The translations under genes and the position numbers were made by a program. From Prorocentrum cordatum (lineage: Eukaryota), in the NCBI GenBank assembly GCA_963575745.1, contig CAUYUJ010000084.1, positions 62,001-118,573 on the forward strand: a stretch of 56,573 nt of DNA, given 5' to 3'. Below the pieces are notes generated by a model that was not told the DNA's origin, did not search any database, and worked only from the letters and a program-made list of their open reading frames with translations. This document shows positions 1 through 56,573 of this stretch, in pieces (the first letter of the stretch is position 1; every line of letters begins with the position of its first letter).

Positions 1-307
1 TACAGATGATACAGATGATGATGATGATGTTGGTGATGATGATGATAACGATGCTGGTGATGATGATGCTGATGAGGATGATGATGGTGATGGTGACGAT
101 GATGGTGATGGTGGTGATGATGATGATGATGATGATGAGGATAAGGATGGTGGTGATGATGATGGTGGTGGTGGTGGCGATGCTGACGATGATGAGGATG
201 ATGATGAGGATGATGATGATGATGATGACGATGCTGGTGCTGGTGCTGGTGTTGGTGCTGCTGCTGATGATGATTATGATGATTCTGACGATGATGATGA
301 TGATGAC

Positions 308-345
<38 letters not shown>

Positions 346-645
346 CGATGGTGATGGTGATGGCGATCACGATGATGATGATGATGGTGATGATGATGAT
401 GATGATGATGACGATACTGGTGACGATGACGATGATGCTGATGATGGTGAGGGTGATGATGATGATGTTGATGATGGTGATGGTGGTGGTGATGGTGATG
501 CTGAGGATGATGAGGATGATGCGGATGATGAGGATGATGATGCTGATGCTGGTGCTGGTGCTGGTGCTGGTGCTGCTGCTGCTGCTGATGATGATGATGC
601 TGATGATGATGGTGGCGATGACGATTATGATGATAATGATGATAC

Positions 646-678
<33 letters not shown>

Positions 679-920
679 CGATGTTGATGACGGTGATGAT
701 GATGATGATGATGATGATGGTCATGATGATGATGATGGTCGTGGTGGTGAGGATGATGATGAGGATGAGGATCATGATGATGGTGGTGGTGATGATGATG
801 ACGATGATGAGGATGATGATAATGAGGATGAGGATGATGATGATGATGATGATGATGATGGTGATGTTGATTATGGTGATGACGATGATGATGGTGATGA
901 TGATGATGATGATGATGATG
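1..920. repeat. Degenerate (GAT)n microsatellite tract
   Basis: Continuous GAT repeats with GGT/GCT/GAC/GAG variants; source of the spurious poly-Met ORF. Confidence 0.97.
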
Positions 921-2904: not shown

Positions 2905-5330
2905 CATAATGTTGATGATGACGCCTGTGGTGTGAACGCTTCTGTTGATGCGGATTTTTATGGTGATGATGACCATCACGATAGTGAAGATGATGAGGAT
3001 GGCGATGACGATTATGATGGTGATGCTGAAGACTGACGATGACGGTGCTGGTGATGATGTTGATGATGACGATGATGCTAATGATTGCTGCTAATGATGC
3101 TGTTGATAGTGATGATGGTGAGGGTGGTGATGATGGCGGTGATGATTATGATTTCGTTGAGGATGGCTAATTATGACGATGATGATGGTGACGCTAGTGA
3201 TGGTGATGATGATCACGATGACGATGACGATGACGGTGACGATGCTGATGATGAGGATGATCATGATGGTGATGGTTACGATGATGTTGACGATGTTGAT
3301 GATGATGTTAATGATGCTGATGTTGATGCCTGTGATTTTGATACAGATGGTGCTCGTGACGATGATGGTGGTGCTGATCATGATAAAGATGTTGCTGACG
3401 CTGATGGTGATGATGATAACGATGATGGTGATAAGGATGATGATGTTGTTGATGATGTTGCTGATGAGCCTGAGGATGCTGTTGATGATAACTTCGATGT
3501 TGACCTTTATGATAATAATGACGATGCTGATGGTGAGGATGATGATGATAATGGTGTTGATAAAGATGATGCTGACTATTACTGTTGTGGTGATGATGAT
3601 GCGAATGTTGCTGATGATGCTGTGTATGCTGCTGGATTTGGTACGGATGATGTTGCTGATGATGACGACGGTGATGATCAGGATGGCGATAACGATGACG
3701 ACGATAGTGATGGTGATGATTATGACCATGGCGATGATGCGTACGATGACGAAGCTGATGATAATGACATTGTTGATGTTGATGATGGTGATAGTGGCGC
3801 TGATGGTATGGTGGTGACGATTATGATGCTGTTGAGGATGGCGATGGCCATGGTGATGACGCTGGTGATGCTGATGATTGTCACGATGACGATGACGGTG
3901 ACGATGCTGATGATGATGATGGTGATTGTGATGATGATGATGATGTTGATGACGACGACGACGACGACGATGACAATGATGACGATGACGACGATGATAA
4001 TGGTGATGTTGATGGTGATGCTGGTCGTGGTGATGATGAGGAAGATGTTGTTGAGGAGTCTGAGGATGCTGTTGGTGCTAACTTCGATCTTGGCGCTGAA
4101 TAAAATAATAATGACAATGATGATGCTGATGCTAAGGATCATGATGAGGATGATGATTGAGGTGGCGGTGATGATGCTGATGATGTTGATGATGCTGATA
4201 GTGTTGACGATACTGGCACGGATGATGATATTGATGATGGCGACGGTGATGAGAAAGCTTCTGCTGATGATGATTGTTACATTGGTGATGATGGTGATGC
4301 TGAGGATGGCGAGGATGATGATGATGACGATGATGTTAGTGATGATGATGACTATGAAGATGACGGTGCCGATGATGATGCTGATAACGGCGACGATGAC
4401 GATGGTGATGATGATGCCGTTGATAACTATGATGGTGAAGATGGTGATGGAGGCGACGGCGGTGGTGATGATTACGATGCTGTTGGGGCTGGTGATGACG
4501 ATGATGATGACGCTGGTGATGGTGATGATGATGATCACAATGACGATGACGTTGGCGATGATGATGGTGATGAAGATGAAGACGATGAGGATGATGATGA
4601 TGATGCTGATGATGGGAAGTGTGATTGTGATTATGATGATGATTATGGTGATGCTTATAATAATCATGGTTTTGCTACATTATTCTTATGGTTAGTATTA
4701 TGATGATGGCGATGACGACGGTCAGGTTGACGGTGATGTTGGTCGTGATGCTGATACTGATGATGAGGATGAGGCTTGTGATGGTGATGCTGATGGTGAT
4801 GACGATGCTGATCATGATGATCATGATGATGTTGACGATAATGATGCTGATGCTGATGCTGATGATGATGGTGGAGTTGATGATGGTGATGATTATGATG
4901 ATCATAGCGATGATGATGCTTATGATAGGGATCACATTTAGAACGATGATGATGATGATGATCATGATGATGATTATTGTGGTGATGATGATGCTGATGA
5001 TGAGTATGAAAATGTTGTTAATGATGAAGATGCATATGATGAGGATGGTGATGCTGATGATGATGAGGAGGAGGATAATGATAATGAGGATGATGATGAG
5101 GATGAGGAGCGTGATGATGGTAATGATGATGATGATGATGGCAACGATGGTGTCGATGATGGCGATGATGATAATGATGATGACGATGACGATGTTGATG
5201 CTGATGATGACGATGTTGTTGATGATGGTGCTGATGCTGATGATGATGGCGGTGGTGATGATGATGCTGATAGTACTGATGATTATAATGATGGTACCAG
5301 TGATGATAATGATGATGATAATGATTGTAG
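2905..5330. repeat. Highly degenerate (GAT)n tract
   Basis: 2.4 kb of GAT-derived triplets giving poly-Asp/Met/Ile ORFs in several frames. Confidence 0.95.
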
Positions 5331-6160: not shown

Positions 6161-6386
6161 GACTTTCGTAGACCGTCCTCAGAGACTTTTGCGGCCGCGG
6201 CCACCCTTCCAGCGCATCCTCGAGATTAGAGCCTTCTGTAAAAGCAGCGCCCCGCATCCGCCGGAAACTCGCACCCCCCCCCCCCATCCCCCCTTCCCCG
6301 GCAGAGCCACCCCGGCAACCCCCCCAGAGGCTGAGGCTCAGCCTCGAGGCTGTAGCTGAGACTCCTTGAAACTCACACGCCGGATC

Positions 6387-6418
<32 letters not shown>

Positions 6419-6446
6419 ATGATGATGATGTTGATGATGATGATGC

Positions 6447-6499
<53 letters not shown>

Positions 6500-6540
6500 C
6501 TGATGCTGATGTGATGATGATGATGATGATGATCATGATC

Positions 6541-6621
<81 letters not shown>

Positions 6622-8754: not shown

Positions 8755-8776
8755 TCCGTAGCCATTTTGGCTCAAG
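8755..8776 (+). other. Genomic copy of the dinoflagellate spliced leader (DinoSL)
   Basis: TCCGTAGCCATTTTGGCTCAAG is a 22/22 match to consensus DCCGTAGCCATTTTGGCTCAAG; followed by a 25-nt UTR and ATG, not by an SL-RNA GT donor. Confidence 0.97.
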
Positions 8777-8801: not shown

Positions 8802-10106
8802 ATGGCGCGGGAGAGTCTGCGCGGGGTGGCTGGTGCCCGCTTCGCTGCAGACCGCCTTGTGCAGCGGCTGACGCGCGAGCTGGCAGAGGCCCGGGGCGAG
8901 GCCGCAAGGCTCCGCGAGCTGCTCGAGGCGAAGGTCGACAGTGAGGGGGACCCCGAGGTGCTGCGGCGTGAGGCGATCGCGAGGCCTGTCCTGGCGGCCC
9001 GCGTCGCCGGCAGACCCGAGGCCCCAGCAGCCAGGCGGCGGCGCAACGTGGCCTGGCACGCCGCTTCCTGCCCGCCGGCCGGAGCGGAGCCGGCCGCATG
9101 GCGCAAGGCCGAGCGCGGGCCCCGCCTGGGAGCAGCTCCCAGGCCTGCTGGTGCTGCTCACGGCGGTGCCAGCCGTGAAGGGGCGGCGCGGCCGCCGCTG
9201 GAGATACAGGTCGAGATCTGCGTCGCCGAGCCCGCCGTGAAGCTCGGGCGACCAGCGGAGCCGAGGGCGAGCCTGCGGTCATGCGCCCAGCCCTTCCGTT
9301 CGAGGCGCACGCCGCTGCGGAGCGGGGCCACACCGTACGTGCCCTTCCGCCAGCTGAGCTGCGAGGAAACCGCCGAGGAGGTGCTCGCGGCTTTGGACTG
9401 CGGGCCCCCGGCTCCCGTGGACAGGGCAGAGCCTGGCCCTCCCCGTGACGGGGCCTGGAAGGCAGACGTGGTGCAGGAGGGAGACGGCGCAGCTGCCCTC
9501 CAGGTGCCGTGTCGTGCCGAGAGGCCCCAGGTGGGCGGTGCTGCAGGCGCTGGTGCGCCGCCGCCGCCGCTGGAGCATCTGGGAGGCCCAATCGGAGAGC
9601 AGGGCGACAACAGGCACGGCGAGGGCGAGAGCGCCGAGGGGAGCCAGGACAGCACGGTGTGCTCCGCGACCCTCTCTGCCGCCACCGCCGAGCGCAACGA
9701 TGTTGCCACGCATTACCTGCTAGATAACTATGCTGCGCTCCTCCGAGGGGGAATCGGTAGCGTCGAGCGCGATGAGGACGTCGAAGGCTCCGTGGGCGGC
9801 GATTGCAGTTCCTACGTCTCCTCCGTGTCAGGGGTCTTCAGGGACTACGGGCCCGACCACGGCCAGTACCTCATCGACGAGTTCTCCGACGGCTGCGAGC
9901 GCGCTGCCGAGTACGACCTCGAGCGTGCCGCATGGCTAGCCCAGGGCTCGCCGAGCTTCGCCGAGCAGTGCGCTCGGCTGGAGCGCAGCAGCCACTTCGG
10001 ATATGAGTTCGAGCGAGGTCTTCTCAGTGTTCAGAGTGCGCGCGAGGCTGTTCTTGGCAGAAGCGTCCGCTGGTTTATTGTCAGTGTTCTCCTGCTCTGC
10101 ATGTGA
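8802..10106 (+). CDS. Hypothetical 434-aa protein (N-terminal coiled-coil-like segment, RRRRNVAWHA motif)
   Basis: First ATG after the SL (CAAGATGG); uninterrupted to TGA; MARESLRGVAGARFAADRLVQRLTRELAEARGEAARLRELLEAK. Function not recognised. Confidence 0.6.
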   Translation: MARESLRGVAGARFAADRLVQRLTRELAEARGEAARLRELLEAKVDSEGDPEVLRREAIARPVLAARVAGRPEAPAARRRRNVAWHAASCPPAGAEPAAWRKAERGPRLGAAPRPAGAAHGGASREGAARPPLEIQVEICVAEPAVKLGRPAEPRASLRSCAQPFRSRRTPLRSGATPYVPFRQLSCEETAEEVLAALDCGPPAPVDRAEPGPPRDGAWKADVVQEGDGAAALQVPCRAERPQVGGAAGAGAPPPPLEHLGGPIGEQGDNRHGEGESAEGSQDSTVCSATLSAATAERNDVATHYLLDNYAALLRGGIGSVERDEDVEGSVGGDCSSYVSSVSGVFRDYGPDHGQYLIDEFSDGCERAAEYDLERAAWLAQGSPSFAEQCARLERSSHFGYEFERGLLSVQSAREAVLGRSVRWFIVSVLLLCM

Positions 10107-47455: not shown

Positions 47456-50224
47456 CAGATGAGGAGGATGAGGCAGGAGGAGGGTGAGGAGGAGGAGGGT
47501 GAGGAGGAGGAGGAGGAGGCGGAGGAGGAGGAGGAGGAGGAGAAGGAGGAGGAGGAGAGAGGGAGGAGGAGAGAGGGAGGAGGAGAGAGGGAGGAGGGAG
47601 GAGGAGAGAGGGAGGAGGAAGGATGACGAGGAGGATGGGGGAAGGGCGGGAGGAAGGGGGGGATGATGATGGTGATGATGATGGTGATGGTGATGGTTCC
47701 GGTTATGGTGATTACGATGGGCATGGTGGTGATGATGGTCATGGTGATGATGATGGTGATGACGAGGATGAAGAGGAAGGATTATGATGTTGATGCTGAT
47801 GCTCATGCTGATGGTGATGGTGATGGTGACGGTGGTGGCGATGGTGATCCCCTAGGCGGCGGCGGCGGCGGCGGCGGCGGCCGCCCTCCCCGGCGGCAGG
47901 TGACGACGCCATCTGGGGCCGGAGGAGCCGACGGCCCAGGGGATGTCGGCCGACTCTCCAGGGCGGCCAGGCGACCGCCCGCTCCCCGGCCGGGAGCCTC
48001 CCCTCTCGCCAGAGGGCCGCGCCAGTGGCGGAGGGCGAGGGGTAGGAGGGAGGAGGGAGGAGAGAGGGAGGGAGGGAGGGAGGGAGGGAGGGAGGGAGGA
48101 GGAGCAGGAGGAGGAGGAGAGGAGTAATAAGAAGAACAATTAGAAGAAGAAGAAGAAGAGGACGAATGATAGAAGGAGGAGGAGGAGGAGGAAGAGGAGG
48201 AGGAGGAGTGGGAGCAGGAGGGCGGAAGACGAGTGGGAGCACGGAAGAGGCGTGCTTCAAGGGTCAGGGGAGAGTTGCTCTCGATTTGATCGCTGCCTTT
48301 AAGGCGAGGGAGGTCAACTTCTCGTGTCCGCCTCAGGCTGCGGTGCAGGAGGGCGGAAAAGGAGCAGGGGGAGGGGGAGGGATGATGGAAGGAAAGGGGT
48401 GAGGAGGAGAGTGGGGGAGGGCGGAGGGTGGAGGGCGGAGGGCGGAGATCGAGGAGCAGGAGCAGGAGGAGGGGAAGACGGGAGGAGGAGGGAGGAGGGA
48501 GGGAGGGGGGAGGAGGGAGAAGGAGGGGAAGGATGAGGAGATGGTCGGAGGGAGGAGGAGGAGGAGGAGGAGGAGGAGGAGGAGAAGGAGGAGGAGGAGG
48601 AGGAAAGGGGGGAGGAGAAGGGGAGGAGAAGGAGCAGGAGTTGGAGGAGGATTAAAATGGATGTAGAGGGCAGGTGGATGAAGATCCTCTCTCTTTCTTC
48701 CTTCCTCCCTCCCTCCTTCCTGCTCTCCCTCATACTCCCTGATCCCTGCTTTTCATCCCTCCTCCGTCCCAAGACACCCTCTCGCCACGAACAACAATCA
48801 CGTCAGAATGTGTTTGCCAGTCCTCTGCCTCCGGAGGTGCCTTTCGTATCGGGCCCCAGGGCCGTGCAGAACAAGACGGTCTGGCAGAGAACAGAACGGC
48901 CCCGGGGGAACGCTGTCCCAAGGTCCACGTTGTAAGGACAAACGCGACGCGGGGGCTCTTGGTCTTTGCCCTCATCCACCCCTCCCCCTCTCGTCCTTTG
49001 TCCATCCTCGGGCCCAGGCGGGGACTTGGATGATTCAATCGGCTTGCGCCGGTCCGCCGACCCCCAGAGGGAGTGAGAGCGCGGTGAAGACCGCCGCACG
49101 ATGCAGCTGAGATAGTTTCACACGCGCAGAATTTGAGACGCCTCGAGCCACCTTGGGAAGAAGAGGGGCGTCTTCGAGGCCTCTTGGGCCGTCTGGAGGC
49201 CAGCTCTGGTGTTTTTGAGGCCTCCGCGGCGTGTTGGAGTCCAGCTTGAGCTAGCCCACCTGGCATCTCAAGGATCCTGGAGGCCACGGATCGTACTGTT
49301 GGGGGCTCCAGAGGCCCCGGGGGGCGCCGGGGAGCCCGACCCCCCCCCTCAAACGGCATTGAAACCTGGGAGGGGGGGAAAGAGGGAGAGGGACAGCCAC
49401 ACGTCGCACACGCCTTCTCACCCCAGGCAAGCGGGGGCCGGCGGATACCCCAGGGGGGCAGTTCACCAGCAGCGCATTTGTGGGGTTGGGGTGGAATTTT
49501 GGAATCATCCATCTTCCGTTTCCGCTCGTCCTCTCCTCCCCTCGGCCTTCTTCTTTCTGCTGGATGCTGTCTCAGCCCCGAAACGCTCCTTCCCCATCCC
49601 CCGCGGAGTTCATACAACCGTTTGTGTGTAGCTGCGCGCTTTGCGTCGCCGCCAAGCCGGCTGGTCTGGCAGCCATACAGGGCTTTCGTAGCCTTTCTGG
49701 CCCATTAGCACAAGGCTGCTGTTTGCGCTTCGACTCCTTGCGTTGAACTTCCACTCCGCGGGTTCGTTGGCCGCTGCATCCTGGCTTTACAGCGCCTCAT
49801 TTTTTCCACCGCTAATCTGCATGGCCGTGGCTGGATTTCTTCACCATGGCGGGTCCGATTAAGTTTTTTCGCAATTGGCACCTCCACCTGCCGATTTAAA
49901 GTGTGTATCTATGTACAACTGTATGTGTTTTGTATGTTCTTTCTTCGGTGTGTGTACATGTATATTTATATGCAAAATTATGGTTTGTGATTAACGGTGT
50001 GCGTATGTGTGACAGTCGTATGTCTGAATAACGTTGCAATGAACGTTTCCATGGGTTCCTTTTTGCGGGGGATAATTGATGTATTCCTTCGTCACAGAGT
50101 ACCGAACTGATTTTTTCCCCGACAATCCTGTGGTGTTGGGTCCTCGTTTTGAAGAGACGGTCCCCGCGTTCCTCCTTCCCTCCTTCTCCCCCTCCTCCTC
50201 CCTCCTCTATCATTATCGTCATCA

Positions 50225-50805
50225 CCCGTTTCAGAACATCCGTCACACGTTTCGTGGCACCATAGAGAATTCTTCCGAAGGTCCACATGGCAGCGTTCGC
50301 ATGCGCCCGCCGCATTCATGCCGGCACACCCTTCACACGGTTCGTGACCCCATAGGGAGCTCCACCGAAGGCCCCAGTGGCTGTATTCGCGTGCGCCCGC
50401 CGCACCAATTTTGGCACATCCTCACACGTTCCGTGTCCTTGTAGGGAGCTCCACCGAAGGCCCCAATTGCTGCGTTCGCATGCGCCCGCCATCAATTTCG
50501 GCACACCCCTCACACGTTTCGTGGCTCTATGAGGAGCCCCACTGGATGCCCCAGTGGCTGCGGTCACATGCGCCCGCCGCACACACTTGGGCACACCCAT
50601 CACACGTTTCGTGGCCCCGTAGGGAGTTCCACCGAAGGCCCCAGTGGCTGGCTGCGTTCGCATGCGCCCGCCGCACCTGTTTTGGCACATCCTCACACGT
50701 TTCGTGGCTCCATAGGGAGTTCCACTGAAGGCCCCAGTGGCTACGTTCGCATGCGCCCGCCGCGCCCTTTTCGTCACACCTTTCACACGTTTCGTGGCTC
50801 CGTAA
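50225..50805. repeat. About 90-bp tandem satellite, about 6.5 copies
   Basis: CACACGTTTCGTGG anchors at 50244, 50334, 50423, 50511, 50601, 50694, 50784. Confidence 0.93.
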
Positions 50806-50838: not shown

Positions 50839-50906
50839 CAGTGCCGGGGAACTGCTTTGAACATCACCAGTCGTTCAAAGCAGTGCCCCGGCACTGCTTT
50901 GAACGA
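50839..50906. repeat. Overlapping (flip-flop) palindromes
   Basis: Perfect 17-bp arms at 50871-50887 and 50890-50906; 50839-50862 is a 23/24 reverse complement of 50873-50896. Confidence 0.9.
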
Positions 50907-51699
50907 TGCGGAAATGCGATCAGCAGGAGCCTTCGTCTGTTCCTTCTCCTCTTCTCGTCGCTGTATGCTCTTCCTTGTCCTCCCTCCTCCCCCGTTCCCT
51001 CTCTAATTAATTACCTCGTTCTCCCAGTCTCACGCGCACTCTTCCTCCCCCCTCTCCTCCTCCTCTTCCTGCTTCTCCTCCTCGTCCTCCTCCTCCTCCG
51101 CCTCCTCCCCCTCATTTGTTATATTTCTCCGTCCTTGTCCTCCTGTCCCCGTTCTCCTTCTCCCTCTCCTCCTCCTCCTCCTCCTCGTCGTCGTCGTCCT
51201 CCTCCTCTTCCTCCTCCTCCTCCTACCTCCTCCTCCTCTTTCCTCCTCCTCCTCCTCCTTTCCTCCCTCCTCCTCCTCCTCACCTTCTTCCTCATCCTCC
51301 TCCTCCCCCTTTCCTCTCATCCTCTCATCCTCTCTCCTCCCTTCCTCTTCCTATCTGACTCCTCCATAATTCCTGTCCGCTCCTCCCCTTCACTGATCTT
51401 CCTCTTCGTCATCATCATCCCTTTCGTCGCACGCCTCTTAATCCTCAATCGGTTCCCAATCTTCTCGACTTTCTTGTCATCCGCGTCCTTGGCTGTTGGA
51501 GGGGCCTCAGGAATTCTCGGGGCTCTTGTGTTGCACGCGAAGGCACACCTCCCAGGAACGCATCATCCTCCTCACATTCACCCTCCTCCTCCTCATCCTC
51601 CTCCTCCATGCACGTTCGGCTCAAGCCCGCGCCGACGGTAGGTTTCACGGCGGTTGGGCGGGCTCGCGCCCGCCTCCGCGGCCTGCAGTCGGGGCAGAG

Positions 51700-52866
51700 A
51701 TGCGTGCAGGGTGGGATGACAAAGCGGAAGAGGAAACACGGGCCGCAGTTGCGGATTCTTCAAAGAGCAGCGGCGGCGGTTGGGGAACAAGTGGGGGTTG
51801 GGGCGGCCGCAGTGGCGGATACGGCGGCGGAGGTGACCGCAGTGGCGGCTGGGGCGGCGGAGATTCTCTTGGCGGATGGAGAGGAAAAGCGCAGGATGGC
51901 GGCGACGGAAGTGACCGCAGTCGCGGATGGGAGGGCGGCGGATGGGGCGGCAACGGATGCGAGGGTTGGGGAATGGAGGGCGCCCGCTGGTGGGACGACG
52001 AGGGTGGCTGGTGGAATGCATGGGAAGGTGGCCGCTCGAGTGCCTCGGCAGGTTCTCCTGCCGCGGAGCCCGCGGCCGCAACAGCGGCGGGCAAAGGAGG
52101 CGGTCCCCTGCTTCCCCCAGGGCGCGAAGAACAAGGCGCAGTTGCGCTGTTTCAAATTGTGCGCAATGAGCCGCTGCCAATTTTCAAGTTGGAATTCTTC
52201 GAGAACTCCAGGGCGAACTGGAACGGCAATTATAAGCAGCACAACGCGGCCTTGAAGTGGTTCCGAGACGAGTACGAAGACCGAGAAAACCCTTTCGGCA
52301 GCCGCACGCCCGTATTCGGAGGTACCGCAGTTGCGGAGGAAATTTCGAAGATCCTTAAGTACCGCGCAAAGGGGAAGGCGCAGGACAACAGGGATTGGGA
52401 CTGGGACCACACTGTCAAAGTGCCGAGGTCTTGGCTGGAGATGGTCGCGCAGATGGATGGACCTACAATGCTGCGCGTCGTGTGCGGCCCTGACAATGAC
52501 CGCAGTCGCGGGTTGGTCCGCTGCGAGTGCCGCCCGTGCCCTAGCAGTCTCTACAACATGAGGCACACGAAAGGGGTGGACAGAGGACAGGCGCAAAGAA
52601 TCCCTCTGCCCCAGTGGGATTTCGTCCTCATCCGCGACGACGGCTCGGGCATTCGCGTCCACCCATCCTGGTCTAGCCCGAAGTTCAACACGTATGAGGT
52701 GGAGCCGCACTAGCATCCCGTGCGGGGCCCGAGGGCAGGTCTCGGCAAGAGCGATGGCCACGGAACGTTCACGTTCTGGAAGATGCTGCACGCCCATCCG
52801 AATCCTGGGCGGTTCGACGCGAGCAAGGGGGCGCAGCTGCAACCGCGGTGGTCCGCGCAGCCTTGA
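51700..52866 (+). pseudogene. Intronless hypothetical gene, Gly/Trp-rich N-terminus plus globular domain, one in-frame TAG
   Basis: SL-like TTCGGCTCAAG at 51615-51625; ATG at 51700; protein-like sequence (YKQHNAALKWFR, WDFVLIRDDGSGIRVHPSW) continues past TAG 52711 (GLGKSDGHGTFTFWK) to TGA 52864. Confidence 0.65.
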
Positions 52867-53531
52867 CACAGCAGTTGCGGGATTGCGCAGCCATGGAACC
52901 GCAGTTGCGGGGACCGATCGCGTGACGCCGCGCTCGTTTGACTCACTATGCGCGCTTTTGGCCGCAGTTGCGGCGCTGCCTTCTAGCGACTTCATACAGC
53001 TTGGCCGCAGTTGCGGCGCTCCCACGACTGACCGCTGTAATTAGGTGCTTCGGGCGCGCATCACCTCCGTTGAAGCACTCGTGACGTTAATTAGCGCGGC
53101 CGCAGTTGCGGAGACAGGTACTTAAACAGATGGATCCGCAGTTGTTCGTCGTCCTCGTCGCCACTTCCCCGTCGTCCTCGTCGCAGTCTCCTCCCTCCGC
53201 CTTTCCTCCTCGTCGCAGTTCCTTCCGTTTGCCGTAGCCCGCCTCCGTTGGCCGAGTCATTTCCCGTCGTCCTCGTCGCAGTCCCCCCCGAGGGCCGCAG
53301 TTGCGGACTTTGTTGATTCCTCCTCCTCCGTTTCTGCCCCGTCATCCTCGTCGCAGTACCCTTGCTCCTTTCACCCTCGTCTGAGCTCTTCGCGCCATCC
53401 TCTTCCGTCGCGTCCTCTCCATCCTCCTCTTCGCCTTCCTCGTCCTCATCCCCGCCGTCTCCCTCGTTGCCCTTCCTCTCCCAAGCCGGCCGCAGGTCCC
53501 CCGTCGGACGGGGGCCGCGCGCGGCCGCGCC

Positions 53532-55361
53532 ATGGACCCAGGTCGCAAAGCCGAGGTCGACAAGCGGTTCGCCGAGCTGAAGCAGCAACTGCGGGAAAGG
53601 TTCGGCCTGCAAGGGGCTGCCGCGGATGCCGCAGTCGCGGAGCCGCCGGAGGACCGCAGTTGCGGAAGCCCCGAGCGACCGCCGCGCGAGGCCTCCCCGC
53701 AGTCGTCTAGCTCCTCGCGGGAATATCGGCCGCCGCCGCCGATAAGCGCTGCGAGTGGGAGCTCTGCTGGTGGGAGGCGCGAATAGGCGCAGTTGCGCAG
53801 GGCGCACTTGACCCCCAAGGCAAAATGGGGGCCTCGGGCGCAGACGCCGACGAAGCAGCAGGACCAACCAACAGTGACGGGAGCCGCCGCCACCGAGACC
53901 GCAGTTGCGGGGGTGGCCGGCGAGCCAGGTGCCGCGCGCGGCTCATCTGGGAGCAGCGCGCCCTCGGCCGTGCTGCTCGCAGCCGAGTCCAAACGAGGCG
54001 CCCAACCCGAAGACGAGGCCGCCTCCCAGGAGAAAGCCGCCGAGACAACCGCCTCGGCCGATTCGCGGCCGAGGAAAAGGCCGCCTCCCATGGAAGACTC
54101 GCCGCTGTCAGAACCGCAGTCGCGGGGTCGCGCGGGGCCTCCGTCGGAACCGCAGTTGCGGGAAGATGCGGGAGCACCGCGGAAGAAGCAGCGGACCAGG
54201 TCCCCTCCAGGGATAAACTACTTTGGGGAACGCCCCAAGTGGAACGAAGGATTCCTTCGTACAGAAGACGGCACTCGGGTTCCGTCCACCATCGCTTTGG
54301 TGTTCAACGTGGTGGTCATCACGAAGGTGGCAACAAAGGAAGATGTCTTCAGGTGCATCTTGCACCAAACTGCGGCGGTCGTCTTCGTCGCATGGGACCC
54401 CGAGCTGTTCCGCACGGGGAACGTCGAAGGCGCTTGCAGCTACGACGTTCGCGTTGGACTCAGGACTGCCGTCGACGACGCTGTCACTTTGAAAAACGCC
54501 TCCGTGGAGCCTTACTGGACGACGGTTGCCCTGTTCAGAGACACGGGCGTGGTGCTCGCGCGCCCGCACATCATCGCAGAGACCGCAGTTGCGGGTCATG
54601 TTGTTGGGGCCACCCACGCCGTCACGATCCTGAGCTTTCGCCTGAAGGGCTCCGAGATGAATCCTGCCGCGGTGATCCGTTTTGCCGTCGTGTCCAGACA
54701 CGCAGTCACCGAACGTCTCCAACACAAGATCACGCAAACAGAACAATCAGCGTGGCATCCAGCTTTCTTCAAGGACGCGGTTGCTTCCATCCATAAAAAT
54801 GATGTGCGGTTCTTGTGCGGCCTGTTTGACATCCCGCCTGAGCAGCTCGCAGCATTTGGCCGCAGTTGCGGAGCCAGCTACACCTGCCCGGCGGGGGTGG
54901 TGTTCAGGGCTGGACCCGCCCTGTTCGGAGGCATTGTGGAGGGCACACGCGTCATGCATCCGAATTACGTCCTCCCCATTGGCCCGTGCGACGTGCGCAT
55001 TGCGGACTACAACCTGGATTTTGCAGGGAGGCCGTCGAAGAACGATCCCCAGTGGCTCCCTGGTTGGATGCATCGAACAAGCGACTCCATCATCTCTCGG
55101 CGCTGGGTCCCAGCGAAGTACATGCCCAAGTGGGAGGATGACCCTGACCGCAGTAGCGGAGTCAGAGAAAAGCTCGGCTTGGCAGCGCTGCCCCCAATCG
55201 GCAAGGTCATTCAGAAGGAGCTCAACGAGAAGACCTTCAGCACGCACTGGTGCGAGGGCATCAACCAAAACATCGTCTTCGTCGGCCACGGACGCGCAAG
55301 TCGGGCGAGCAAGCGGAAGCACGAAGAGGCGCGATCTGCCGCAGTTGCGGACGAGCGGTGA
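53532..55361 (+). pseudogene. Intronless hypothetical gene with alpha/beta-type C-terminal domain, one in-frame TAG
   Basis: GCCATGG start; 53532-53786 and 53793-55361 are the same frame, separated only by TAG 53784; complex globular sequence from about 54200. Confidence 0.65.
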
Positions 55362-55945
55362 GTGCGGCAAGACCGAGGAGCCGCAGTTGCGGAACAGAGC
55401 TCGGTACTACTGGGCGCCTGCTGCTTGCGTAGTGCATCCCAGTGTAGGATAGCCCGCAGTTGCGGTGTTGCGGTTGCGGTGTAGGATAGCCCGCAGTTGC
55501 GGGGTTGCGGTTGCGAAGCCGCAGTTGCGGTTGCGTATAATAGGAGAGCACGCGGTTGCGAAGCCGCAGTTTGCAATAAGTGTGCGCGCGATGGGTCATC
55601 ATCATCGTCGTCGTCCGTCCTCGTCGTCGTCGCTGCCGTCGTCGTCGTCGCGTCTGTCGTCTGTCGTCAGCAGTCGTCGTCGGTCGTCGTCGTAGTCAAG
55701 TCTGTCGTCTGTCGTCAGCAGTCGTCGTCGTCGTCGTCCCTCCTCCCTCCTCCCTCCTCCCTCCTCCCTCCTCCCTCCTCCCTCCTCGTCCTCCCCCAGG
55801 CCGCATCCCCCCGCCACCTCCGTCCTAGCTCTCCTTCCCCTTCCCCTCCTCGTCCTCCTCCAGCTTGCACCCCCCTCCCTCCTCCAGCCTGCACCCCCCC
55901 CAAGCTCTCGCCCGATATTTTGGATTTAAACTGAGCCTTCAGTCG

Positions 55946-55965
55946 TCCGCAGGCATTCGGCTCAG
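55946..55965 (+). other. Degenerate spliced-leader relic
   Basis: TCCGCAGGCATTCGGCTCAG aligns 17/22 to DinoSL, about 110 nt upstream of the next ATG. Confidence 0.5.
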
Positions 55966-56076
55966 CAGGTCGTTGGGCTCCTGGCACACACGCCTCCACC
56001 CTGAGCGACGGACGTCGTGCCATAGTCCGCCATATCGGAGCTCCGGGCCGCAGTTGCGGACAGCGTCGGCACAGAT

Positions 56077-56573
56077 ATGAACGACAGCGTCGGCACAGAT
56101 AATGCCGCAGTGGCGGACAAGAAAGCCGCAGTGGCGGACGAGACAGCCGCAGTTCCAGGCGGAACGCAAGGGATCTTTCAGAGGGCCAACGCCTTGAGGT
56201 CTAGATTCAGGACAGGGGACAAGGTGCGCCTCCCTGTGCTCCTGCTCGCCCCGCACACGGGCAACCGAGGCGGGCACTACCCTCAGCAGGAAAGGGTTCG
56301 GGAACTCGCTGTGAAAATCTTCCTGGCTGGATTCACGCAAGCCGAAGCTGACCACGAAGGTGTCTGCGTTCAGATGTACCCAGCACCAGAGCTGGTGCTG
56401 AGAAAAAGGGAGGACCCGAAGTTCCAGACGTACACAGAGTACAATCTGGAAAAAGCGACCGGCCACCTCGCTGCGTGCTTCGACCGCAGTTGCGGAACAG
56501 ACGTTGCGTATGGGACGTGTTCGCACTCCCAATTGTGCCTCGTGTTGCGGGCGTGCGCCCTGGGAGCCAAGTG
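56077..56573 (+). CDS. 5' part of a hypothetical protein with possible ParB/Srx-like domain (runs off window; absent from the ORF track)
   Basis: Open frame MNDSVGTDN...PHTGNRGGHYPQQERVRELAVKIFLAGFTQAEADHEGVCVQ...YGTCSHSQLCLVLRA to the window end. Confidence 0.7.
   Translation, partial: MNDSVGTDNAAVADKKAAVADETAAVPGGTQGIFQRANALRSRFRTGDKVRLPVLLLAPHTGNRGGHYPQQERVRELAVKIFLAGFTQAEADHEGVCVQMYPAPELVLRKREDPKFQTYTEYNLEKATGHLAACFDRSCGTDVAYGTCSHSQLCLVLRACALGAK

What the first reader, a model, noticed from the sequence alone, without database searches (positions are those of the whole stretch)
51743..56495. Strand-polarised, coding-compatible 12-bp palindrome saturating a 5-kb gene cassette
Seen: 28 copies of CCGC-AGTN-GCGG (e.g. 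51743, 52325, 52899, 53654, 54583, 54860, 55339, 56048, 56484), all in one orientation, and none exact noticed in the preceding 51.6 kb. In these copies only loop position N varies; two further copies show paired arm changes (GCGCAGTTGCGC at 52136 and 53787) that preserve the stem. Copies sit inside ORFs in all three frames (AVA, PQLR, RSCG), even within globular regions, so the signal is nucleic acid rather than peptide. Inference: a HIP1/REP/uptake-sequence-like self mark of a large mobile element or endogenous virus (packaging, modification, replication or RNA-processing site; the AGNN tetraloop recalls Rnt1p-type recognition).
Basis: partly seen in the sequence, partly recalled or inferred. 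Interest (0 to 1): 0.88.

Follow-up and report, generated by a model that had tools for sequence, protein, structure and literature searches.

The report
Strand-specific hairpin motif saturating dinoflagellate genes
A 12-letter hairpin-forming DNA word is packed, always on the coding strand, into and just after the genes of a multi-copy dinoflagellate gene cassette and its distant relatives. It is kept letter-perfect while the proteins diverge, which points to an undescribed recognition signal, most likely read in the RNA.

Summary
There are 28 exact CCGCAGTNGCGG copies, all on the + strand, at 51743-56495 and none elsewhere in the window (0.14 expected by chance).

The window is dinoflagellate nuclear DNA: it holds a perfect spliced-leader relic at 8755-8776. 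The cassette has three same-strand ORFs without Pfam hits. It is multi-copy, and this copy is decayed, with one in-frame TAG in each of ORF1 and ORF2.

- **Same motif in relatives.** The exact motif, sense strand only, saturates seven marine metagenome contigs. Two encode ORF3 relatives at about 31% identity. Others encode DDE-like and nuclease-like proteins. The total is 93 sense and 0 antisense copies in 23.4 kb.
- **Peptide shadows.** The three frame translations (xAVAx, PQLR, RSxG) are enriched about 40-fold in hundreds of family proteins.
- **Selection on nucleotides.** 51 of 54 A-V-A tripeptides are coded GCA-GTN-GCG, against 3.8 expected.
- **Hairpin support.** Flanks covary to extend the stem up to 9 bp with unrelated sequences.
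- **Placement.** Copies lie within about 35 nt after the stop codon at 7 of 10 ORF ends.

Best reading (0.5): a sense-strand RNA hairpin with an AGUN loop that serves as a multi-copy binding site for a reader protein. A single-strand or polar DNA signal is the main rival. No virus hallmark genes were found, and no published description turned up.

The parts
51743..56495 (+). Field of 28 exact CCGCAGTNGCGG copies (plus one decayed copy at 52869), all in sense orientation
51701..52866 (+). ORF1. It has a Gly/Trp-rich (GW/WG) N-terminal region and a conserved C-terminal alpha/beta domain with no structural match. This copy has an in-frame TAG at 52711-52713 where the 99% homologue P0006 has Ser. 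It holds 6 motif copies.
52869..53111 (+). Cluster of motif copies starting 3 nt after the ORF1 stop codon: the decayed copy at 52869, then 52899, 52962, 53005 and 53100. TAATTA words lie at 53038 and 53088.
53130..53470 (+). Pyrimidine-rich low-complexity spacer with repeated CCTCGTCGCAGT units, which contain the 5' half of the motif core. It holds one full motif at 53295.
   Evidence: families D2, D12
53532..55361 (+). ORF2, 608 aa in homologue P0001. This copy has an in-frame TAG at 53784-53786; the other genomic copies read G at 53784. It holds 9 motif copies in all three frames, plus the GCGC-arm variant at 53787.
55381..55571 (+). Cluster of motif copies starting 20 nt after the ORF2 stop codon (55381, 55454, 55491, 55519), with additional GGTTGCG half-motif repeats
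56048..56573 (+). ORF3 start, with ATG at 56077, cut by the window end. The full protein (P0004) is 816 aa. It has an N-terminal domain with a weak ParB-N-like match, a helical middle and a C-terminal SET-like fold. Motif copies lie at 56048 (29 nt before the ATG), 56105, 56126 and 56484.
52136..52147 (+). Variant GCGCAGTTGCGC. The outer pair is swapped C-G to G-C, so the stem is kept.
53787..53798 (+). Second GCGCAGTTGCGC variant. Its peptide AQLR is conserved in the 58% homologue P0003.
50839..50896 (.). 24-nt inverted repeat (96% complementary) between the 90-bp satellite and the cassette. It is a possible left boundary, because the multi-copy depth begins about here.
51004..51013 (.). TAATTAATTA block upstream of ORF1. 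The same AT-rich three-frame-stop word flanks genes in the related contigs.

Best explanation
The 12-mer is a selected, sequence-specific hairpin: a stem CCGC/GCGG, often lengthened by complementary flanks, capped by the loop AGUN. It is read on one strand only, the sense strand of the genes. It is a family-wide cis signal of a multi-copy, mobile-element-like set of dinoflagellate genes (ORF1, ORF2 and ORF3 here; DDE-like and nuclease-like genes in related contigs).

The most likely mechanism is inferred, not shown. The hairpins form in the transcripts and act as many additive binding sites for one reader protein that recognises the loop and closing stem. That would give all mRNAs of the family a shared treatment, such as protection or stability, export of intronless messages, translation control, escape from silencing, or recruitment into a particle.

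Shown here:
- the motif is real and strictly strand-polarised;
- it is linked to these gene families;
- selection acts at the nucleotide level;
- the stem covaries;
- copies are placed just after stop codons;
- sites turn over by substitution.

Inferred: that RNA rather than DNA is the molecule read, that a protein reader exists, and what the benefit is.
For: 1. **Strand rule.** In the window cassette plus 7 metagenome contigs (23,435 nt) there are 93 sense and 0 antisense copies. Only about 9 single-mismatch variants occur away from position 8. In all 8 sequences the motif strand is the strand of the long, homology-supported ORFs.

2. **Conserved beyond the proteins.** L045 and L046 encode ORF3 relatives at 31-32% identity yet carry the exact 12-mer.

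3. **Peptide shadows of the three frames are strongly enriched.**
- ORF3 family, 152 representatives: 311/39/37 observed against 7.7/1.5/2.5 in shuffles, present in 139 of 152 proteins.
- ORF1 family, 41 proteins: 64/19/75 observed against 1.1/0.4/1.8, present in 40 of 41.
- In 53 aligned full-length ORF3 relatives, all 53 have at least one. There are 201 in total at 54 sites. One site is shared by 25 sequences and 26 sites are unique to one sequence.

4. **Nucleotide-level selection.**
- 51 of 54 A-V-A tripeptides are coded GCA-GTN-GCG, against 3.8 expected, and 34 use the rare GTT codon.
- Position 8 is T in 24 of 29 non-coding copies but only 6 of 17 in the frame where T would encode Cys.

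5. **Hairpin.**
- Flank -1/+1 is Watson-Crick in 50 of 93 copies (shuffle mean 26.2, maximum 39 of 2000). The same covariation shows in proteins as A-A, S-D/E, P-G and T-V pairings of xAVAx.
- At least 2 extra pairs occur in 26 of 93 copies (mean 6.5, maximum 17 of 5000). At least 3 extra pairs occur in 12 (mean 1.5). Some stems reach 9 bp with unrelated sequences inside coding DNA.
- The covariation score is 0.141 against 0.104 +/- 0.012, reached by 1 of 500 shuffles.
- The bare RNA hairpin folds at -6.3 kcal/mol.

6. **Transcript-like placement.** At 7 of 10 ORF ends a copy overlaps the stop codon or starts within about 35 nt after it, often opening a cluster of 3-5 copies. Copies also lie near start codons (51743, 56048, 56105).

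7. **Sites are gained by substitution, not insertion**.
Against: - **No direct RNA evidence.** The only RNA-library material was short contigs covering few motif sites, and DNA carry-over cannot be excluded.
- **No contig separates the readings.** None carries genes on both strands, so 'follows the transcript' and 'follows the element' cannot be told apart.
- **Wobble pairs do not favour RNA.** G-T type pairs are not enriched in the extended stems: 14 G-T type against 11 A-C type at offsets 1-2.
- **The window's own copies lack stem extension.** 25 of 28 have no extra pair and purines flank both sides. The covariation therefore comes from the relatives.
- **Adjacent copies can pair with each other.** In the minimum-energy folds of the clusters they do so instead of forming local hairpins.
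- **The encoded proteins look DNA- or chromatin-directed.** ORF3 has a SET-like fold and a weak ParB-N-like match, and no RNA-binding domain was found.
- **The metagenome contigs were found with a three-copy pattern,** so clustering in them is partly built in.
Confidence: 0.5

Rival explanations
1. DNA-level signal. The hairpin forms in single-stranded DNA (during replication, transposition or transcription bubbles), or the asymmetric word is read as a polar duplex site. The reader would be an element-encoded DNA or chromatin protein, such as the ParB-N-like/SET-like ORF3 or the DDE-like protein. The word would then mark the element's DNA as 'self' for copying, segregation, chromatin marking or protection.
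For: - ORF3 models with a C-terminal SET-like fold (Z 9.1, rmsd 3.6, 123 residues aligned to 1zkk_A) and a weak pNOB8 ParB-N match (Z 6.3, rmsd 5.2, 225 aligned).
- Related contigs carry a DDE-like ORF, by motif reading only.
- The near-palindrome resembles centromere-like and transposase binding sites.
- There is no excess of G-T wobble pairs in the extended stems.
- The motif also sits in spacers (53295, 56048).
Against: - A symmetric duplex reader would not impose 93:0 strand polarity.
- Variable, covarying arm extensions argue for intra-strand pairing rather than half-site reading.
- Clusters sit directly after stop codons, and the long pyrimidine-rich spacers hold almost no copies. This follows gene structure, not element structure.
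- The ParB match is weak and lies in the range the tool calls common. No transposase family passed any threshold.
Confidence: 0.25
2. Mutational or conversion drive without function. A repair, gene-conversion or hairpin-templated process among the many copies keeps creating and homogenising the 12-mer, as proposed for uptake sequences or HIP1.
For: - The cassette is high-copy: word depth 300-900 in run X3 against about 6-16 in nearby single-copy bins. That gives ample templates.
- Sites turn over, with 26 of 54 sites unique to one sequence.
- Exact copies vastly outnumber one-off variants.
Against: - The same exact word persists in lineages whose proteins are only about 31% identical.
- Position 8 yields to coding needs only where it must.
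- Copies are placed just after stop codons at 7 of 10 ORF ends.
- Lineage-specific stem extension uses unrelated sequences.
- Strict polarity holds although both orientations are free of stop codons in every frame, as the sequence itself shows.
Confidence: 0.1
3. Target sites for a small RNA. The word is complementary to a guide loaded in an Argonaute, with many sites in the coding region and the 3' UTR. The GW-rich ORF1 would be the Argonaute-binding partner.
For: - Multi-site layout with 3' UTR clusters.
- The ORF1 family has a Trp/Gly-rich N-terminus. That composition is recalled as typical of Argonaute-binding 'hooks'.
Against: - Self-complementarity and covarying flanks are unexplained by guide pairing.
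- One free position inside an otherwise invariant 12-mer is not a seed-type pattern.
- An element would be expected to lose, not keep, sites that silence it.
Confidence: 0.05
4. A protein-level repeat: a short peptide motif such as AAVAD selected in the proteins.
For: xAVAx peptides are abundant in all three protein families.
Against: - The same DNA word is read in three frames as unrelated peptides, and 29 of 93 copies are non-coding.
- 51 of 54 A-V-A tripeptides use one codon set.
Confidence: 0.01

Closest known systems
Dispersed packaging-signal stem-loops of single-stranded RNA viruses (MS2/STNV/HBV-type; recalled knowledge)
   Same: Many short sense-strand stem-loops with a conserved loop motif and variable stems are scattered through coding and non-coding sequence. 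They act additively as binding sites for one protein.
   Different: Here the inner 4-bp stem is invariant as well. The carrier is nuclear dinoflagellate DNA in many copies. No capsid-like or polymerase gene was found, and there are no relatives in viral contigs.
AGNN-tetraloop hairpins recognised by yeast RNase III Rnt1p
   Same: The loop begins with invariant A-G, and the last loop position is free.
   Different: The third loop base, U, is also invariant. Stems are 4-9 bp, too short for the measured cleavage 14-16 bp from the loop. Copies inside coding sequence would be self-destructive if cut.
Iron-responsive element loop CAGUGN (recalled knowledge)
   Same: An A-G-U turn is presented on a C-G closing pair. 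The 10 copies with G at position 8 spell CAGUGG.
   Different: There is no bulged C five pairs below the loop. The copy number per transcript is far higher, and copies lie inside coding sequence.
HIP1, REP/BIME, uptake sequences (USS/DUS), Chi/KOPS and Rickettsia palindromic elements in bacteria (recalled knowledge)
   Same: These are short over-represented words, often palindromic. Some tolerate coding sequence in several frames, and some are strand-polarised. They mark a replicon or are spread by a drive.
   Different: All are prokaryotic and genome-wide. HIP1 and USS lack the 93:0 polarity. REPs are extragenic. Rickettsia palindromic elements are 100-150-bp insertions, whereas these sites arise by substitution and are confined to particular gene families.
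Export or stability elements of intronless and retroviral RNAs (CAR-E, CTE/PRE, and the RSV stability element just after the gag stop codon; recalled knowledge)
   Same: They are cis RNA elements that act in multiple copies on intronless messages. One class sits directly after a stop codon to shield the RNA.
   Different: These are unrelated sequences from animals and their viruses. No functional test exists for the motif here.

Membership tests
Rnt1p-type AGNN hairpin substrate | AGNN tetraloop | tested here: met
   The loop is AGTN in 93 of 93 copies.
Rnt1p-type AGNN hairpin substrate | Long double-stranded stem reaching the cleavage site about 14-16 bp below the loop | tested here: not met
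   Stems are 4 bp plus 0-5 extra pairs, and 43 of 93 copies have no extra pair.
Bacterial REP/BIME or HIP1/USS-type genome-wide repeats | Spread through the whole genome of a prokaryote; extragenic (REP) or without strand polarity (HIP1, USS) | tested here: not met
   The host is a dinoflagellate. There are 0 copies in the other 51.7 kb of the window. 64 of 93 copies are coding. Polarity is 93:0. The whole genome could not be mapped.
DNA transposon (DDE class) | Recognisable DDE transposase | tested here: inconclusive
   L041 and L048 share an ORF with D..D..D-like motifs by eye. It has no Pfam or PDB sequence match, and no such gene lies in the window.
DNA transposon (DDE class) | Terminal inverted repeats and target-site duplication | not tested
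   The window ends inside ORF3, so the right end is unseen. Only a 24-nt inverted repeat at 50839-50896 lies near the left depth boundary.
Repeated or mobile element in general | Many copies per genome, including decayed ones | tested here: met
   Word depth is 300-900 in X3 and 600-1900 in X4, against about 6-16 in nearby low-copy bins of X3. The other copies read G at 53784 where the window has the T of a TAG. A second in-frame TAG lies in ORF1.
Endogenous large DNA virus | Hallmark genes (capsid, polymerase, packaging ATPase) or relatives in viral collections | tested here: not met
   There are no Pfam hits in ORF1-3 or the related ORFs. There are no relatives and no motif triplets in IMG/VR. 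Only generic SET-fold matches appear in BFVD.
SET-domain proteins (ORF3 C-terminus) | SET fold | tested here: met
   The model has pLDDT 83.3. Residues 573-775 match SET8, COMPASS Set1 and PRDM domains at Z 8-9.1. Foldseek probability is 0.99 but E is about 0.03. Cofactor and catalytic residues were not assessed.
ParB/Srx-like N-terminal domain (ORF3 N-terminus) | ParB-N fold | tested here: inconclusive
   There is one match, 5k5d_B, at Z 6.3, rmsd 5.2, 225 aligned, rank 50. There are also weak DUF262/GmrSD rows in BFVD at probability 0.13-0.21. The domain was not folded alone.
Endonuclease/exonuclease/phosphatase family (L048/L051 ORF) | Pfam PF03372 match above threshold | tested here: inconclusive
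   E is 0.14 at 12.3 bits, against a cut-off of 24.5, for the L051 ORF only. GDFN and SHFP-like motifs were seen by eye. No link to the window's ORF2 was found (hhalign probability 1.2%).

The most novel reading that the evidence does not exclude
The hairpin is a molecular barcode shared by all messages of a large, ancient family of selfish multi-gene elements in dinoflagellates. It would be read by the family's own proteins. One candidate is the GW-rich ORF1, whose conserved C-terminal domain has no known fold and whose Trp/Gly-rich tail could engage Argonaute. The effect would be that the element's RNAs are collectively shielded from, or routed around, the host's RNA surveillance. In organisms that regulate genes mainly after transcription, this would be a new type of cis code written through coding sequence in all three frames.
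Probability: 0.12. Interest if true: 0.92.

Novelty: new variant of a known kind. Interest (0 to 1): 0.8.

Why it matters
Dinoflagellates control genes mostly after transcription, yet very few cis-acting RNA or DNA signals are known in them.

Here a 12-nt word is exact enough to be searched with plain text. It is embedded in coding sequence at roughly one copy per 250 nt. It is maintained at measurable cost to codon choice and protein sequence across hundreds of diverged genes.

That gives several things:
- a direct handle for pull-downs, to find a reader protein;
- a marker to delineate an uncharacterised, abundant element family in very large genomes;
- a clean natural example of overlapping protein and nucleic-acid codes, where stem covariation is visible even in protein alignments.

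Tried and rejected
- **Whole-genome k-mer map.** No genome is held for this window.
- **Rfam.** No family matched in the window at gathering thresholds.
- **Two-copy pattern in IMG/VR.** It gave 30 contigs (L001-L030) with just two copies each, mostly 21 nt apart. The three-copy pattern gave 0.
- **Three-copy pattern in metagenome contigs.** 14 of the 21 loci are regular tandem arrays with 17-42-nt spacing. None of these 44 loci (30 viral plus 14 metagenome) encodes a relative of the cassette proteins. They were dropped as unrelated repeats.
- **Relatives of ORF2 and ORF3.** None in IMG/VR. None for ORF2 in metagenome contigs by peptide patterns.
- **DNA of the protein homologues.** It could not be fetched. 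Motif presence in them therefore rests on peptide shadows.
- **ESM Atlas.** Not available.
- **ORF2 and the nuclease-like ORF of L048/L051.** BLASTP gave E 0.017 for one short stretch and hhalign gave probability 1.2%. The link is rejected.
- **ORF1 C-terminal domain.** The model is confident (pLDDT 81.6), but the best structural match is Z 4.9.
- **Relic spliced leader before ORF1.** GGCTCAAG at 51618 occurs 3 times in the window against 3.3 expected, so it is not evidence.
- **RNA editing in the loop.** The few RNA-library contigs over motif sites show no change there. This is too little to conclude anything.
- **12-bp insertion model.** Aligned homologues show substitutions, not 4-residue gaps, at motif sites.
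- **Literature.**
  - Searches for the word and its complement found only unrelated papers that hold the letters. There were 27 papers, 20 listed, and only the listing was read.
  - Three keyword searches found no description.
  - For PMC12787238 and PMC4738411 only passages were read.

Full report
**1. The observation.**

One search finds 28 exact matches to CCGCAGTNGCGG, all on the + strand, between 51743 and 56495. None lies in the remaining 51.7 kb. One hundred dinucleotide-preserving shuffles gave a mean of 0.14 and never more than 1.

Position 8 is T in 19 copies, G in 4, C in 4 and A in 1. One search confirms the two GCGCAGTTGCGC variants at 52136 and 53787 and shows a near-copy at 52869.

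Laying public contigs on the region shows that the other genomic copies read C at 52870. That makes 52869 a 29th, decayed copy.

Larger local duplications explain little. Only four short pairs share flanks (52857/52887, 52958/53001, 55442/55479, 56101/56122).

**2. The host and the cassette.**

No genome is held for the window. The window is rich in microsatellites and has a patchy GC content of 47-71%.

At 8755-8776 it holds a perfect 22-nt dinoflagellate spliced leader, about 25 nt upstream of an ATG. The sequence is the one given in the abstract of PMC2606063 (abstract in the search listing). Relic leaders upstream of retroposed genes are described for dinoflagellates in PMC5585692, of which I saw only the title and the start of the abstract. 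The window is therefore dinoflagellate nuclear DNA.

The motif field covers three same-strand ORFs, separated by pyrimidine-rich low-complexity spacers.

- **ORF1 (51701-52866).** It has a Gly/Trp-rich N-terminus and a conserved C-terminal domain.
- **ORF2 (53532-55361).** It corresponds to the 608-aa protein P0001.
- **ORF3 (from 56077).** It is cut by the window end and corresponds to the 816-aa protein P0004.

None has a Pfam match.

This copy is damaged. ORF1 has an in-frame TAG where the 99% identical P0006 has Ser. ORF2 has an in-frame TAG where P0001 has Glu, and the other genomic copies read G there.

Contig word depth over the cassette is 300-900 in run X3 and 600-1900 in X4. Nearby non-satellite bins of X3 have about 6-16. 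The cassette is therefore a multi-copy repeat. The stretch, or most of its words, occurs in runs of 15 studies, mostly marine.

**3. The same word in distant relatives.**

A scan of metagenome contigs for three copies close together returned 21 loci.

Seven have dispersed copies on one strand only: L032, L041, L044, L045, L046, L048 and L051 carry 5, 12, 6, 12, 7, 16 and 7 copies. The other 14 are regular tandem arrays. Neither they nor the 30 viral-contig loci encode any relative of the cassette proteins, so all were dropped.

The seven dispersed-copy contigs encode the following:

- L045 and L046 encode ORF3 relatives at 31-32% identity.
- L041 and L048 share a large ORF with DDE-like motifs by eye (40-64% identical to each other).
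- L048 and L051 share an ORF with GDFN and SHFP-like motifs. It has a sub-threshold Exo_endo_phos match, E 0.14.

No Pfam family passes for any of these ORFs.

Over the window cassette plus these seven contigs (23,435 nt) there are 93 sense copies and 0 antisense copies. Only about nine single-mismatch variants occur away from position 8. In every one of the eight sequences the motif strand is the strand of the long ORFs.

**4. Family-wide peptide shadows.**

The three sense frames translate the word as [SPTA]AVA[VADEG], PQ[LSW]R and RS[CRSG]G. ORF3 belongs to a large family: 882 representatives at E <= 0.001 in the 50%-clustered library.

| Family | Proteins examined | Observed (three frames) | Shuffle expectation | Proteins with at least one |
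|---|---|---|---|---|
| ORF3 | 152 | 311 / 39 / 37 | 7.7 / 1.5 / 2.5 | 139 of 152 |
| ORF1 | 41 | 64 / 19 / 75 | 1.1 / 0.4 / 1.8 | 40 of 41 |

In an alignment of 53 full-length ORF3 relatives, every protein has at least one shadow. There are 201 in all at 54 sites. One site is shared by 25 sequences, several by 8-15, and 26 sites are unique to one sequence. The family therefore keeps a density of sites, with a few old fixed positions and much turnover.

At aligned sites, homologues without the word show substitutions, not four-residue gaps. Copies are therefore gained by point change, not by 12-bp insertion.

**5. Selection acts on the nucleotides.**

Of the 93 copies, 64 are in ORFs: 44 read as AVA, 17 as RSxG and 3 as PQLR. 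The other 29 are non-coding.

Of 54 A-V-A tripeptides in these ORFs, 51 are coded GCA-GTN-GCG, against 3.8 expected from the ORFs' own codon usage. Thirty-four use GTT, a codon used for only 17% of other valines.

Position 8 is T in 24 of 29 non-coding copies and in 33 of 44 AVA-frame copies, where all four bases are synonymous. It is T in only 6 of 17 copies in the frame where T makes Cys. T is therefore the preferred letter, and it yields only to protein constraints.

Neither orientation of the word contains a stop codon in any frame, as the sequence itself shows. Coding therefore cannot explain the polarity.

**6. It is a hairpin.**

The bases flanking the word are Watson-Crick complementary in 50 of 93 copies (shuffled partners: mean 26.2, maximum 39 in 2000). 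They use G-C, T-A, C-G and A-T.

The same rule shows through the proteins. Among 382 xAVAx peptides, the pairings A-A, S-D/E, P-G and T-V are over-represented: 182 on the predicted diagonal against about 106 expected.

Stem extension beyond the core four pairs is also enriched:

- At least two extra pairs occur in 26 of 93 copies (mean 6.5, maximum 17 in 5000 shuffles).
- At least three extra pairs occur in 12 copies (mean 1.5).
- Several L048, L045 and L046 copies inside coding sequence form 8-9-bp stems with unrelated arm sequences.

The pair-counting tool gives a covariation score of 0.141 against 0.104 +/- 0.012, reached by 1 of 500 shuffles. It counts 108 doubly changed cells against 84 +/- 6.5, reached by 0 of 500.

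Against this, the window's own copies have purines on both sides and no extension in 25 of 28. This lineage uses the bare 4-bp form, plus the two swapped-arm variants.

The bare RNA hairpin is predicted at -6.3 kcal/mol. In the clusters, neighbouring copies can instead pair with each other, because with U at position 8 the RNA word is self-complementary through two G-U pairs.

An invariant A-G-U in the loop, invariant inner arms and free, covarying outer arms together indicate a folded single strand whose loop and closing pairs are read sequence-specifically.

**7. Placement along genes.**

At 7 of 10 ORF ends examined, a copy overlaps the stop codon or starts within about 35 nt after it. It usually opens a cluster of 3-5 copies.

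- The seven are window ORF1 and ORF2, the second ORF of L041, L044, L046, the first L048 ORF and L051.
- The three without are the first ORF of L041, L045 and L032.

With about one copy per 250 nt, a single hit in 35 nt has a chance of roughly 0.13.

The metagenome loci were found by a cluster pattern, which biases clustering but not its position relative to stop codons.

Copies also sit close to start codons (51743, 56048, 56105). The long pyrimidine-rich spacers hold only one copy (53295).

A second cassette-linked word, TAATTA or TAATTAATTAA, gives stops in all frames. It stands at or just after several stop codons in the relatives. Four of its five occurrences in the window lie in the cassette, against 1.13 expected for the whole window.

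**8. The proteins.**

- **ORF3.** It models confidently (pLDDT 83.3). Residues 573-775 adopt a SET-like fold (Z up to 9.1, rmsd 3.6, 123 aligned to 1zkk_A). The N-terminal half gives only a weak match to a pNOB8 ParB-N domain (Z 6.3, rank 50).
- **ORF1 C-terminal domain.** It models confidently (pLDDT 81.6, pTM 0.76) but matches nothing (best Z 4.9).
- **ORF1 N-terminus.** It is W/G-rich in all homologues. I recall this composition as typical of Argonaute-binding GW proteins. Part of it is itself the motif read as DRSRGW.
- **ORF2.** It has three homologues and no assignable fold.

No RNA-binding domain, capsid, polymerase or reverse transcriptase was recognised. No relative was found in IMG/VR.

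**9. Interpretation.**

The following are firmly shown:

- The word is a real, strongly selected, strand-specific hairpin signal.
- It is tied to a set of co-occurring, multi-copy dinoflagellate gene families.
- It is old enough to be shared by proteins at about 30% identity.

Which molecule is read is not shown. I favour RNA (0.5) for these reasons:

- The word always follows the sense strand of five unrelated gene families.
- It respects gene anatomy: clusters lie right after stop codons and near start codons, and the long pyrimidine-rich spacers hold only one copy.
- Many additive sites inside a message are how dispersed protein-binding stem-loops work in RNA viruses and in intronless-RNA export or stability elements (recalled analogies).

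A DNA-level reading (0.25) stays open for these reasons:

- All genes seen are co-oriented.
- The encoded proteins look chromatin- or DNA-directed.
- Wobble pairs give no RNA signature.

A pure mutational drive (0.1) fits the copy number and the turnover. It does not fit the placement, the coding trade-off at position 8 or the lineage-specific stem extension.

**10. Novelty.**

I found no description of this word or of these gene families.

- The literal searches returned only unrelated papers (listing only).
- Three keyword searches returned nothing relevant.
- Passages of PMC12787238 and PMC4738411 do not mention it.
- Earlier notes of this scan hold nothing on it.

It belongs to the broad known kind of over-represented short hairpin or palindromic signals. 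It differs from every named family I could compare: a eukaryotic host, confinement to particular gene families, 93:0 polarity, an invariant loop and inner stem, residence in coding sequence in three frames, and gain by substitution.

Noticed in passing
window 8755-8776: A perfect 22-nt dinoflagellate spliced-leader sequence follows a (GACACA)n tract and lies about 25 nt upstream of an ATG at 8802. This is a relic leader of a retroposed gene and identifies the host lineage.
   Followed up: partly
window 50223-50798: A 90-bp tandem satellite (6.4 units) sits directly upstream of the cassette. Its summed word depth in two runs is about 480,000-500,000, a thousand-fold above the cassette.
   Followed up: no
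window 50839-50906: Nested inverted repeats (24-nt arms at 96%, and 17-nt arms at 100%) lie between the satellite and the cassette, about where the multi-copy depth begins. This is a possible element end.
   Followed up: no
window 51004-51013, 53038, 53088; L046 1609-1630 (TAA stop and the block after it); L041 2089-2215; L032 614-645; the 3' end of L041; the 5' end of L046: AT-rich TAATTAATTAA-type blocks, which give stop codons in all six frames, stand at gene ends in a 55-65% GC context. Four of the five TAATTA words in the window are in the cassette.
   Followed up: partly
window 51701-52080 and the N-termini of P0006-P0046: The ORF1 family has a disordered Trp/Gly-rich N-terminus with many GW/WG and DRSRGW units, reminiscent of Argonaute-binding GW proteins. 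Some of the units are the DNA motif read in frame.
   Followed up: no
window 52711-52713 and 53784-53786: Two in-frame TAG codons lie in otherwise conserved ORFs. Homologues have Ser and Glu there, so this copy is a recent pseudogene whose motif copies are still almost all intact.
   Followed up: yes
window 53164-53368: The unit CCTCGTCGCAGT is repeated 4-5 times in the pyrimidine-rich spacer before ORF2. It is a pyrimidine tract plus CAG, so it looks like a splice acceptor, and it shares CGCAGT with the motif.
   Followed up: no
window 14-920, 2960-5325, 6383-6620 and many others: There are very long trinucleotide arrays: (GAT)n of about 300 units, (ATG)n of about 780 units, and also GGA/TCC/GAG tracts. 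No Pfam-recognisable gene was found among the 12 large ORFs tested in the first 50 kb.
   Followed up: partly
L045, last 200 nt in sense orientation: A tandem array of a different hairpin unit (AAAACAAGTCCCCTGGGGACTTGTTTT) lies after the ORF3-like gene, in place of the usual motif cluster.
   Followed up: no
L001-L030 (viral contigs) and 14 of the metagenome loci L031-L051: The same 12-mer occurs as part of regular tandem repeats with 17-42-nt periods in unrelated phage-like and bacterial-like contigs. These have no dispersed copies and no related proteins.
   Followed up: partly
L041 574-2088: An ORF upstream of the DDE-like gene ends in a Cys-rich stretch with a DGDCG motif that recalls OTU-type cysteine peptidases. 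It has no Pfam match.
   Followed up: no
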